From assembly GCA_030595905.1 (NCBI GenBank), contig JAUVLE010000003.1, positions 1 through 34,313 on the forward strand: a stretch of DNA of 34,313 nucleotides. The letters run 5' to 3'. The position numbers and the translations under genes are program-made. A model generated the notes under the pieces. That model saw only the letters and a list, made by a program, of their open reading frames with translations, did no database searches and had not been told where the DNA came from. The DNA comes from Candidatus Cloacimonadota bacterium (GTDB lineage: Bacteria; Cloacimonadota; Cloacimonadia; Cloacimonadales; TCS61). Shown piece after piece: positions 84-2,492 of this stretch. The stretch's first letter is position 1; every line of letters begins with the position of its first letter.

Positions 84-1019
84 TTATAGAAAAAACCTGC
101 TGTCAATTCTTGAAATTATCCGCTTTTTAAAAACGAATTCAGACCATACTTTCAACGTTTCCAGCGACATCCTTATTTTTGCATTTTTTGTGAAAGAACC
201 GGCATGCGGAGACAATAATACATTTTCTTTTTTTGCAAAATTTTGTGCTTTCCATGGTTCTTGACTAAAGACATCAGATGCAAACCCAAGAATTTTTCCG
301 GATAATAAGCCGGATTCAATAATGCTTTCATCTACAATCCCGCCCCGAGCTGTATTGATCAACCATATAGATTCATGCAATTCCTGTAAAATCGAAACGG
401 AAAAATAATGTTGAGTTTCCTTTGTGAGCGGACAATGAAATGTTACCAGGTTACACCATTCGATTCCTTCTTTATAGGAGATCTTTTCAACGCCTCTCTC
501 CTTCCATTCGGAAACAGAAAGATATGGATCGATTCCTTTAACTTCCGCTCCAAGAAATTGTAAAGCTCCGGCAACCCTGGAGCCAACTCTTCCCACACCC
601 ACGATTAAAACTTTCAGATCAGGAATTTCCCAATTTGCCGGAAAATCCTTGCTCCAGTCTTCTTTCAAAACCATTTCTTTACACTTCTGATGTTGTTTGA
701 TAAGCGCAAAGATGAAAGACAAAGTGTGCTCATAAGCGGAAAAAGCATTAGCTTCGGGAGTATTGCAGACAACGATATTTCTCTTCTCAGCTTCCGGAAT
801 ATCTATATTATCAAAACCACTACCGGCTCGTATTATCATCTTCAGATCGGGAAATTTTCGGAAATATTCTTTATTAAAATTTGTTTTTGTGCGAATTATT
901 ATTATTTCAACTTTATCCTGATTGCCTTCAGTATCTTCCAGAAAATAACTTTCCCAGTTCTTTTCCTTTATTTTCTGCCAAAAAAGTTTCGGCATTGATT
1001 CCATTACATATGTTTTCAA
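84..1019 (-). CDS. D-isomer-specific 2-hydroxyacid dehydrogenase (SerA/D-3-phosphoglycerate dehydrogenase-like, no ACT domain)
   Basis: RAGSGFDNID, NTPEANAFSAYEH, Rossmann GVGRVG, INTARGGIVDE, DVFSQEP, SPHAG motifs; TTG start preceded by GAGG RBS. Confidence 0.85.
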   Translation of the reverse strand: MKTYVMESMPKLFWQKIKEKNWESYFLEDTEGNQDKVEIIIIRTKTNFNKEYFRKFPDLKMIIRAGSGFDNIDIPEAEKRNIVVCNTPEANAFSAYEHTLSFIFALIKQHQKCKEMVLKEDWSKDFPANWEIPDLKVLIVGVGRVGSRVAGALQFLGAEVKGIDPYLSVSEWKERGVEKISYKEGIEWCNLVTFHCPLTKETQHYFSVSILQELHESIWLINTARGGIVDESIIESGLLSGKILGFASDVFSQEPWKAQNFAKKENVLLSPHAGSFTKNAKIRMSLETLKVWSEFVFKKRIISRIDSRFFL

Positions 1020-1214
1020 AATTAATTACCTCATTTAATCTAAAGGAATTTTTTATGACTATTGTACTTTGCTCTGATTAATTTTTTTTTAATAAGATTC
1101 TTCTTCATTATTATAATACTATCCATATACTGCATAAAATCAAAAAAAAATAACTACTTAGTTAATCAAGGAAAAAATGTTTGACAGATTATATATTCCA
1201 ATAATTTATCTCTA

Positions 1215-1373
1215 ATGGAATTAGGTATTATGATTTTTTTAATAAAAATAGTAACTGAATTTAACTATCGAAAAATGAGGAATAGTGCTGCACATCTTGA
1301 TATGCAACACACTAAAGAACAAGCAGAAAATGCAGTTGCTTTTGTAAAAAGTTTAATTCAAAGGAACAGCTAA
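1215..1373 (+). pseudogene. Short ORF (52 aa), likely 3' remnant of a HEPN-domain cassette gene
   Basis: Own translation: MELGIMIFLIKIVTEFNYRKMRNSAAHLDMQHTKEQAENAVAFVKSLIQRNS. Contains the R-N-x-x-x-H HEPN motif followed by an amphipathic helix; the stop codon lies inside the R'' box of the attC. Confidence 0.5.
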
Positions 1374-1447
1374 AAAGGCGCTGAAGCCGACCATTTCCCG
1401 CGCCGCTTCGCTCTGCGGAAAATGGCGATTTAGCTTCATCGTTGGCT
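1368..1447 (+). mobile_element. Integron attC-like recombination site
   Basis: R'' AGCTAAA (degenerate RYYYAAC), 5-nt spacer, L'' GCTGAAGC with extra G, stem CCATTTCCCGC/GCGGAAAATGG, L' ATTTAGC, 6-nt spacer, R' GTTGGCT; GC-rich island in AT-rich DNA. Confidence 0.75.
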
Positions 1448-1458
1448 GAGAAGATAAA

Positions 1459-1896
1459 ATGAGAAAATATCAACTACCGGGTTTGTTGGCTAAATTTGTA
1501 AATCAAAAAGTATATGAGCAGTGGCTACATCGAAAAGCTGTTGCTCATGTTCGTCGGGACAGAAATCGTGGGAACAAGACAGCAACATACGAGAAATACA
1601 AAATCGCTATTCATAAAGCAGTATGTGATTCAGATGGCAAGGACGCCTATACAAACGAAGAACTGAATTGGTTGCTGCTCAGTAAGTACGACAACGAAAA
1701 ATCCAAAAAAGGCGGAAGAAATTACAAAAAGCAATTTGCATTGTTGCCTTCTGTTGACCATGTTGGGAATGGCACAGGTCCAGCAGACTTCAAAATTTGC
1801 GCGTGGCGCACAAATGGCGCAAAGAACGATTTATCATACGAGGAATTTTTGGATTTATGTGAAAAAGTTGTTGTATCAGCTAATCGCTGCGGCTGA
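1459..1896 (+). CDS. Stand-alone HNH (His-Me finger) nuclease-like protein in an integron-type gene cassette
   Basis: GKDAYTNEEL...PSVDH...DFKICAWRTNGAKND-SYEEF pattern; starts 11 nt after R' and runs through the next R'' box. Confidence 0.6.
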   Translation: MRKYQLPGLLAKFVNQKVYEQWLHRKAVAHVRRDRNRGNKTATYEKYKIAIHKAVCDSDGKDAYTNEELNWLLLSKYDNEKSKKGGRNYKKQFALLPSVDHVGNGTGPADFKICAWRTNGAKNDLSYEEFLDLCEKVVVSANRCG

Positions 1897-1911
1897 AGAG
1901 CGACGTTCTAA
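1878..1911 (+). mobile_element. Second, internally deleted attC remnant
   Basis: R''-like AGCTAAT (near-complementary to the cassette's own GTTGGCT), then only the right arm GCG-GCTGAAG-AGCGAC-GTTCTAA; left arm missing. Confidence 0.5.
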
Positions 1912-1949
1912 AGAATAATCATATCTATTTAATTCCATTACCAGTGTTT

Positions 1950-2492
1950 TCATTTAATAAAATTCATCTGCAAATATTCATTTTTATATTTCACATAATT
2001 TTTTGAAGAGGTATATATATTTTCAACCTCTTTATCGGAAAGTTTTCTCACCACTTTTGCAGGAGTTCCCATGATCAGGCTTCGGGAAGGAAACTTCTTA
2101 TTCTGGGTAACCACTACTCCTGCTGCAACAATTGATTCATTCCCGATCTCCGATCCATCAAGCAAAGTTGCACTCATTCCGATCAGGCAGGCATTCCCGA
2201 TCCGACATCCGTGAAGCATAACTTTATGACCAATCGTTACATCACTTCCAATAATGGCAGGAAAACCTCCTTCGATATCATCATTTTCGGAATGCGTAAC
2301 ATGGATCACGCTGAGGTCTTGAATGTTCGTGCGGTTACCTATTTTGATATAGTGAACATCTCCCCTGAGCACAACGCCAAACCAGACGGAGCAATCATTA
2401 CCAATTTCACAGCGGCCGATAACATCTGCCGTAGGTGCTATCCATGTGTTCTTTCCAATTTTGGGAACATGATCTTTGAAATTCGAAATCAT
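1950..2492 (-). CDS. Gamma carbonic anhydrase family / hexapeptide-repeat protein (YrdA-like)
   Basis: LRGDV, NIQDLSVIH, TIGHKVMLHGC metal-binding His set, hexapeptide repeats, GTPAKVVR. Confidence 0.9.
   Translation of the reverse strand: MISNFKDHVPKIGKNTWIAPTADVIGRCEIGNDCSVWFGVVLRGDVHYIKIGNRTNIQDLSVIHVTHSENDDIEGGFPAIIGSDVTIGHKVMLHGCRIGNACLIGMSATLLDGSEIGNESIVAAGVVVTQNKKFPSRSLIMGTPAKVVRKLSDKEVENIYTSSKNYVKYKNEYLQMNFIK

What the first reader, a model, noticed from the sequence alone, without database searches (positions are those of the whole stretch)
1215..1911. Orphan integron cassette array (no integrase) carrying a HEPN fragment and an HNH gene
Seen: a GC-rich 80-bp site at 1368-1447 with attC geometry (R'', 5 nt, L'' with extra G, stem, L', 6 nt, GTT). 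The upstream ORF stops inside R''. The next ORF starts 11 nt after R' and ends on a second attC that keeps R'' and the right arm but lacks the left arm; its R'' AGCTAAT nearly complements the cassette's own GTTGGCT, as expected for one cassette (~1442-1905). Known: attC clusters without intI (CALIN/SALIN) exist and cassettes often carry toxins or anti-phage genes. Inference: a decayed, immobilised array between housekeeping genes. Both R'' boxes have lost the AAC, so the HNH cassette may be locked in place.
Basis: partly seen in the sequence, partly recalled or inferred. Interest (0 to 1): 0.72.

Follow-up and report, generated by a model that had tools for sequence, protein, structure and literature searches.

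The report
Dead integron spliced into housekeeping gene
A 934-base insert between two housekeeping genes holds two decayed gene cassettes and likely the promoter, docking site and last codons of a deleted integrase gene, so it is probably a whole gene-capture system that arrived, replaced the start of the neighbouring gene and then died: a known kind of relic with unusually clear footprints.

Summary
The array is real. A model built from 17 foreign attC sites finds exactly 1368-1447 (26 bits, E 0.0013). The junction is empty in 26 of 38 related loci, including all four same-genus genomes where both genes were found. Three corrections. (1) The array was probably not born orphan: 1122-1187 best matches an intI promoter region (E 5e-12), 1035-1052 resembles intI's last codons and 1211-1226 resembles attI. 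(2) attC2 lost 25 bp between two 7-bp repeats; another study's contig carries the intact arm. (3) Only codons ~18-52 of the first ORF are HEPN. The 934-bp insert duplicated the 5' end of the serA-like gene and supplies it a new start, as SXT and dusA islands do, but no mobility gene remains. The 145-aa protein is likely an HNH/endonuclease VII-type nuclease; a defence role is unproven. Verdict: a CALIN likely formed by integrase loss, a known kind. The scan noted a similar integrase relic in another genome (e1-6627150).

The parts
995..1019 (-). Left direct repeat: replacement 5' end (TTG start, codons 1-7) of the serA-like D-2-hydroxyacid dehydrogenase gene (84-1019)
   Evidence: Repeat family D2, 24 nt, spacing 934. 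Differs from the close relative's allele at the start codon and codon 4. The same TTG allele is native in other genera.
1028..1032 (-). Ribosome-binding site supplied by the insert for the serA-like gene (inferred)
   Evidence: GAGGT 8 nt before the TTG; in relatives the gene is coupled to gamma-CA by overlapping stop and start
1035..1052 (-). Likely last five codons and stop of a deleted intI (K-I-P-L-D-stop)
   Evidence: 14 of 16 nt identical to the G058 intI end at the same distance from the same start stub; corrected background 7e-5. Not found by a pooled profile.
1122..1187 (.). Likely intI/cassette promoter region of an integron platform
   Evidence: Best non-self match in 231 genomes is the region just upstream of G042 intI, 82% identical, E 5e-12
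1211..1226 (+). Likely degenerate attI (one base short, crossover G missing)
   Evidence: Resembles the attI cores of G041, G222 and G228. Only match of the pattern in the window; 3 matches in the genome. Pattern chosen after seeing the site.
1221..1441 (+). First cassette remnant: short 5' stub joined to the last ~35 codons of a transmembrane-HEPN gene (ORF 1215/1230-1373)
   Evidence: Residues ~13/18-52 match 137-275-aa proteins, E 4e-7 to 3e-4; two of the four reach Pfam's HEPN cut-off
1368..1447 (+). attC1, full length, R'' AAC changed to AAA
   Evidence: Model hit 26 bits, E 0.0013; fold z -2.49
1459..1896 (+). 145-aa cassette gene, likely HNH / endonuclease VII-type nuclease; cassette 1442-1905
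   Evidence: 447 homologues; invariant D100 H101 N119 K122; PHROG endonuclease VII in 23 of 33 aligned members, not the window's own copy; weak fold hits to HNH domains
1877..1911 (+). attC2 remnant: 25 bp deleted between two 7-bp repeats at 1877-1883; L' 1893-1899, non-consensus R' 1905-1911
   Evidence: A contig of run X3 (another study), 7 differences in 500 bp, runs on after 1883 into R'' plus the left arm; other contigs show the same site family intact
1929..1953 (-). Right direct repeat: the original 5' end of the serA-like gene, still overlapping the gamma-CA stop, now heading a 25-codon orphan frame
   Evidence: Matches the G001 empty junction; translation

Best explanation
The 934-bp insert holds two decayed integron cassettes and is likely the remnant of a complete integron (integrase gene, promoter, attI, cassettes) that entered as one block by recombination within the first seven codons of the serA-like gene and later lost its integrase. 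Shown: the insertion, the duplicated and replaced gene start, attC1, the 25-bp deletion in attC2 and the truncated HEPN gene. Inferred: (a) the donor had intI directly upstream of a TTG-type allele of the same gene, so a crossover in the shared 9-bp core gave the host gene a new ribosome-binding site and start and left the old start behind gamma-CA; (b) intI was deleted almost completely, before or after arrival; (c) with attI, attC1 and attC2 all damaged and no intact IntI in the assembly, the 145-aa gene is fixed; (d) that gene would be read from the old cassette promoter and likely encodes a small HNH-type DNase, with a defensive or toxic role at about even odds.
For: Junction empty in 26 of 38 loci and in all four same-genus genomes with both genes. 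24-nt direct repeat, spacing 934. An unbiased DNA search of 231 other genomes ranks an intI promoter region first (E 5e-12). Order and orientation fit an integron: intI end, promoter, attI-like site, cassettes reading away. In G058 an intact intI is followed by the same RBS and TTG stub, and the alignment runs across that junction; the RBS-plus-stub pattern occurs at only 3 places in 232 genomes, the three it was designed from. Intact left arm of attC2 in run X3. The cassette follows a different upstream sequence in run X6 and is the gene next to intI in L019. Model attC just downstream in 10 of 80 homologue loci, 6 of them not in the training set. Acquired integrons lose intI function quickly (PMC3510236, abstract).
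Against: Pooled profiles of 11 intI 3' ends and of 9 and 8 upstream regions did not find the window relics, and tblastn with IntI finds nothing in the window. The intI-end match is 16 nt and the attI pattern was defined after the fact. Similarity to G041 beyond 1187 is no better than shuffles (62% score as well). The same minus-strand stretch also holds an open frame of about 28 codons in another frame. Promoter type (G042-like) and intI end (G058-like) point to different relatives, and no donor with the whole arrangement was found. A 9-bp core is short for ordinary homologous recombination. 70 of 80 homologue loci have no model attC just downstream. Only 14 of 150 neighbouring ORFs hit PADLOC, several as generic kinase or protease domains.
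Confidence: 0.6

Rival explanations
1. [quoted passage not shown]
For: Direct repeats with a 9-bp perfect core and a supplied RBS and start, as described for prfC and dusA islands (10.1101/2021.06.18.448947, passages). An imperfect inverted repeat joins 1213-1236 and 1917-1940 (0.7% of 3000 random low-GC stretches score as well).
Against: Only 27 bp lie between the last attC crossover and the right junction, and no recombinase relic other than intI is seen. The TTG allele is native in other genera (G036, L185). In G058 the stub is fused to nifS at about codon 8-13 by eye, not clearly at the same point. No second element at this site in 38 loci. No joint or empty form in six runs, contigs only.
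Confidence: 0.2
2. The cassettes were dropped at a secondary chromosomal site (attG route) and never had a platform here; the promoter, intI-end and attI likenesses are chance in AT-rich DNA.
For: The last R' is non-consensus after GTT. This route is demonstrated and needs only GWT (10.1101/2022.09.11.507474, passages). Pooled profiles miss the relics.
Against: Such an insertion would not duplicate 20-24 bp or bring about 200 bp of non-host upstream DNA. That DNA matches an intI promoter region at E 5e-12, and three separate relics fall in integron order.
Confidence: 0.1
3. The integron is ancestral at this locus and was lost from the relatives.
For: An intI-to-serA-stub junction also exists in G058, and the family varies at this site (12 of 38 loci differ).
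Against: The right repeat keeps the stop/start overlap seen in G001, 26 of 38 loci across many genera are empty, and the cassette gene is found in only 2 of 232 phylum genomes, one as a fragment.
Confidence: 0.05
4. The insert or the attC2 deletion is an assembly artefact.
For: The genome has 329 contigs, and in the probable source run the contigs break at 1879-1894.
Against: A second sample has one contig spanning 1571-2334 and another spanning 738-1041, both with no differences; the probable source run spans 500-1894 in one piece.
Confidence: 0.02

Closest known systems
[quoted passage not shown] 2016, PMC4889954, passages)
   Same: Cassettes with attC sites, no intact intI nearby; loss of intI is one of the four listed origins.
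   Different: Only one attC is full length, so a tool would probably call it a single site. The intI relic is under 60 bp, far below the 50% profile coverage used there, where 95% of CALINs showed no pseudogene. Here the promoter and an attI-like site survive.
SALIN / attG insertions (10.1101/2022.09.11.507474, passages)
   Same: Isolated cassette between chromosomal genes; non-consensus sequence after the last GTT.
   Different: A 20-24 bp duplication of a gene start and platform relics are not expected from an attC x attG event.
SXT at prfC and dusA-targeting integrative elements (10.1101/2021.06.18.448947, passages)
   Same: Insertion in the 5' end of a housekeeping gene, with a new N-terminus and translation signals supplied.
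   Different: No element integrase, excision factor or transfer origin; 934 bp only; excision not seen.
His-Me finger (HNH / endonuclease VII) nucleases; Sirona and Nemetona cassettes (10.1101/2024.07.02.601686, passages)
   Same: Small single-gene cassette with a DH...N..K pattern and weak HNH fold hits; HNH-like and HEPN-like cassettes are described anti-phage systems.
   Different: No Pfam, NCBIfam or PADLOC family for the window protein; the zinc-binding cysteine pairs are not kept (my reading of the alignment). Identity with Sirona or Nemetona could not be checked because the preprint's supplements are closed.

Membership tests
attC site (1368-1447) | R''/L''/L'/R' boxes at canonical spacing and a bottom-strand hairpin | tested here: met
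   Model hit 26 bits, E 0.0013; fold z -2.49
attC site (1368-1447) | Complementary AAC/GTT crossover triplets | tested here: not met
   R'' reads AAA
attC site (1368-1447) | Recombined by IntI | not testable with these tools
   Needs an assay
CALIN | At least two attC sites | tested here: inconclusive
   One full site and one remnant shown to derive from an attC; IntegronFinder itself is not available
CALIN | No intact intI nearby | tested here: met
   None over the TIGR02249 cut-off in the assembly, 96% complete
Complete integron | Intact intI | tested here: not met
   Only a likely 18-nt 3' relic
Complete integron | attI with GTT between promoter and first cassette | tested here: inconclusive
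   attI-like site without its G at 1211-1226
Complete integron | intI/cassette promoter region | tested here: met
   82% identity to the G042 intI upstream region, E 5e-12; activity untested
5'-end-targeting integrative element (SXT/dusA type) | Flanking direct repeats and a replacement gene start | tested here: met
5'-end-targeting integrative element (SXT/dusA type) | Own integrase gene | tested here: not met
   No ORF or relic other than intI in 934 bp
5'-end-targeting integrative element (SXT/dusA type) | Excision to a circle or empty site | tested here: inconclusive
   No joints in six runs, all held as contigs
HNH / endonuclease VII nuclease | Conserved DH and downstream N | tested here: met
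   D100, H101, N119, K122 invariant in 33 of 33; likeness to the Cas9 HNH catalytic pattern is recalled, not from a call
HNH / endonuclease VII nuclease | Profile or fold match | tested here: inconclusive
   phrog_1035 in 23 of 33 members, best E 4e-6, window copy 0; Foldseek best E 0.5, top five all Cas9 HNH; VIA best Z 4.1, rmsd 6.3, 110 aligned, PacI; Atlas nearest named cluster HNH 18%, score 0.90
HNH / endonuclease VII nuclease | DNase activity | not testable with these tools
   Needs an assay
HEPN protein | RxxxxH motif and homology to HEPN proteins | tested here: met
HEPN protein | Whole domain present | tested here: not met
   About 35 residues of a ~110-residue domain in ~270-aa proteins
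Anti-phage defence cassette | Match to or clustering with known systems | tested here: inconclusive
   1 of 33 members weakly hits PADLOC; 14 of 150 neighbours

The most novel reading that the evidence does not exclude
In this phylum whole integron platforms move as units with no transposon or second integrase: they carry a spare ribosome-binding site and gene start just behind intI, insert by a short-homology crossover into the first codons of a housekeeping gene, re-head it, and then shed intI almost without trace. That would be an undescribed route of integron spread and a hidden origin for many CALINs that seem to lack an intI pseudogene.
Probability: 0.2. Interest if true: 0.7.

Novelty: new member of a known kind. 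Interest (0 to 1): 0.4.

Why it matters
Cury et al. found no intI pseudogene near 95% of CALINs and left their origin open. This locus shows that intI can be deleted down to a few codons while promoter and attI traces stay, which protein-profile searches cannot see; DNA comparison with relatives' intI flanks is a direct way to test how common that is. It also catches attC decay in the act, with intact and deleted forms in environmental data, and adds an unnamed, widespread nuclease-like cassette family as a candidate for defence screens. None of this overturns known biology.

Tried and rejected
Pooled nhmmer profiles of intI ends and upstream regions found the C224 relic (E 4e-12) but not the window relics. 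My first ungapped test of the intI-end match was one base out of register and was redone. My hand-written attC scanner missed the true register of attC1 and found only 6 of 80 downstream sites, so I replaced it with the covariance model. The idea that 1213-1255 continues the G041 intergenic region failed a shuffle test. The idea that the TTG allele marks an element end was weakened when it proved native in G036 and L185. A likeness of the G058 serA upstream DNA to an intI promoter, seen by eye, was not among the top BLAST rows. A search for the other junction of the G058 nifS locus found nothing. The inverted repeat 1213-1236/1917-1940 is marginal and has no copies elsewhere in the genome; dif-like and terminal-repeat readings were dropped by inspection. 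The promoter scan gave 1 site against 4.4 expected. No RNA holder listed. Word-indexed search with the HEPN fragment found nothing. The metagenome scan with the serA-like protein found nothing. No PDB sequence match; no Pfam or NCBIfam family. One viral locus and three plasmid records give no sign of a phage gene. Literature searches listed no paper on Cloacimonadota integrons or on integron platforms that replace a gene start; the library lacks most subscription journals.

Full report
Observation. The region 1215-1911 lies between a D-2-hydroxyacid dehydrogenase gene (84-1019, minus) and a hexapeptide-repeat, gamma-CA-like gene (1950-2492, minus). I built a covariance model from 17 attC sites picked by a simple scanner from loci of other genomes. 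It hits 1368-1447 on the minus strand at 26 bits, E 0.0013, with non-standard pairs at the crossover and in the L arm; it is the only genome hit at E<=1. The model is GC-biased and missed attC-like sites I saw by eye on C57 and C313, so it is not a census. The bottom strand folds better than shuffles (z -2.49), though its lowest-energy form shifts the L register.

The second site. Contigs of run X3, from a different study, include one covering 1384-1883 with 7 differences that then continues for 18 letters into the rest of R'' and the left arm; other contigs in X1, X3 and X5 show the same site family intact. I had predicted this continuation before one search showed it. The window's site therefore lost 25 bp between two 7-bp repeats at 1877-1883, which also changed the last codons of the gene. 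The deleted form is real: a second sample spans 1571-2334 with no difference.

The cassettes. The 145-aa protein has 447 homologues among 460 candidates, the best 120 at 66-82% identity, with named sources as far apart as Vibrio and Acidihalobacter. Of 80 genome loci, 10 have a model attC just downstream, 4 of them training sites, and in L019 the gene is next to intI. Most homologues are thus not flanked by a detectable attC. In run X6 the attC1-plus-gene start follows a different upstream sequence, which fits cassette shuffling. D100, H101, N119 and K122 are invariant in 33 sequences. The model is confident (pLDDT 86.6). Fold matches are individually weak but repeatedly HNH-type: Cas9 HNH domains take the top five Foldseek rows at E 0.5-0.95; PacI, a type II restriction enzyme, Gme HNH and McrA are in the top eight VIA rows at Z 3.6-4.1. 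PHROG endonuclease VII matches 23 of 33 members, not the window copy. The window copy departs from consensus at D70N, D104N and D120G; the close X3 contig has D120. A defence role is plausible from what cassettes carry (10.1101/2024.07.02.601686, passages), but only 14 of 150 neighbouring ORFs (150 of 153 extracted) hit PADLOC at E<=1e-8. The upstream 52-aa ORF is a chimera: residues about 18-52 match the C-terminus of transmembrane-HEPN proteins (4 informative hits of 6).

The insertion. In G001 (about 90-95% identical DNA) the two housekeeping genes overlap at stop and start. Of 38 related loci, 26 have them within 18 nt, 2 have a larger gap and 10 have no gamma-CA within 1.5 kb. The window insert is 934 bp between imperfect 24-nt direct repeats. 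The right copy is the original gene start; the left copy has a TTG start, another codon 4 and its own RBS. The crossover most simply lies in the shared 9 bp at 999-1007/1933-1941. The TTG allele is native in other genera, so it looks donor-derived. Replacing a target gene's 5' end is known for SXT and dusA islands (passages), but those encode an integrase.

The missing integrase. No protein passes the TIGR02249 cut-off in the assembly; 10 of 232 phylum genomes pass at E<=1e-90, none of 8 in the genus. Searching 1020-1300 against those genomes, the best non-self hit is the DNA just upstream of G042 intI (1122-1187, 82%, E 5e-12; next 8.5e-6, the same region in G041). Between it and the RBS, 1035-1052 reads K-I-P-L-D-stop on the minus strand and matches the G058 intI end at 14 of 16 nt (3 such matches in 5.8 million positions; 7e-5 after correction). 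In G058 that intI is followed by the same RBS and TTG stub, fused to nifS. Downstream, 1211-1226 resembles this group's attI core but lacks the crossover G, and an ATG follows at 1230. The three relics fall in integron order. Against this, pooled profiles missed them, tblastn sees nothing, the patterns were defined after the fact, and no donor with the whole arrangement was found. I put the former presence of intI here at about 0.75 and the full account, including entry by short-homology recombination, at 0.6.

How it likely works now. Nothing can move: no IntI is held, attI lacks its G, attC1 has a mismatch at the crossover pair, and attC2 cannot form its hairpin. A mismatch in this triplet lowered recombination about 370-fold for another position (PMC2811028, passages). 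The insert must supply translation, and probably transcription, signals to the serA-like gene, which would favour keeping its left end while intI and the HEPN cassette were deleted (inference). Loss of intI after acquisition has a measured fitness basis (PMC3510236, abstract). Expression was not shown.

Comparison and verdict. This is a CALIN-like relic formed by route (iii) of Cury et al. (PMC4889954, passages), with an insertion signature like that of 5'-targeting islands. It fails membership as a complete integron and as such an island. The taxon label Cloacimonadota comes from an earlier scan note and was not tested. A similar integrase relic was noted by the scan in another genome, seen after I had reached this reading; it is not independent support. 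PMC3607928 was seen as abstract only and is not relied on; PMC3410848 passages gave nothing usable. Supplements of the bioRxiv preprints are closed, so identity with Sirona or Nemetona is open. Interest 0.4.

Noticed in passing
G000:C224:619-986 (L227): A second dead integron: the first ~56 codons of intI with an in-frame stop, fused to what looks like a type I restriction-modification region; its upstream DNA is 85% identical over 207 bp to the G016 intI upstream region.
   Followed up: partly
G000:C57:966-1777 (L226): attI-like site of the G065 type (E 3e-12) followed by a cassette gene and an intact attC-like hairpin that shares 19 bp with attC1; no intI.
   Followed up: partly
G000:C313:12801-13810 (L225); G006:C399 (L228): Promoter plus attI-like site plus one cassette upstream of a hutI-like gene, with a 7-bp direct repeat at both ends and no intI. 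G006 has two such modules in tandem, G004 other cargo, G003 none; the attI-like motif recurs at 1-3 places in four same-genus genomes. Possibly a mobile integrase-less attI module.
   Followed up: partly
L183:1448-1510 (G058): An intact intI is followed by a serA-like RBS and start stub fused in frame to a cysteine desulfurase gene; the same genome's serA-like gene has the same start and sits beside a nuclease-methyltransferase pair.
   Followed up: partly
window:1196-1220 and 1213-1236 / 1917-1940: A short palindrome found once in the genome and an imperfect inverted repeat linking the attI-like site with the right junction (p about 0.007); unexplained.
   Followed up: partly
L195:533-760 (G041): The same promoter type with an attI core but no intI, directly beside the gene that flanks intI in sister genome G042: another apparent clean intI loss.
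   Followed up: partly
L167 (G045): Two small genes resembling a nucleotidyltransferase-HEPN pair (my reading of the ORFs) lie just upstream of the serA-like gene, so this site takes up foreign DNA in other genera too.
   Followed up: no
L009:4740-5300: The closest genome homologue (83%) follows an attI-like sequence and also has a degenerate attC of the same family as attC2.
   Followed up: no
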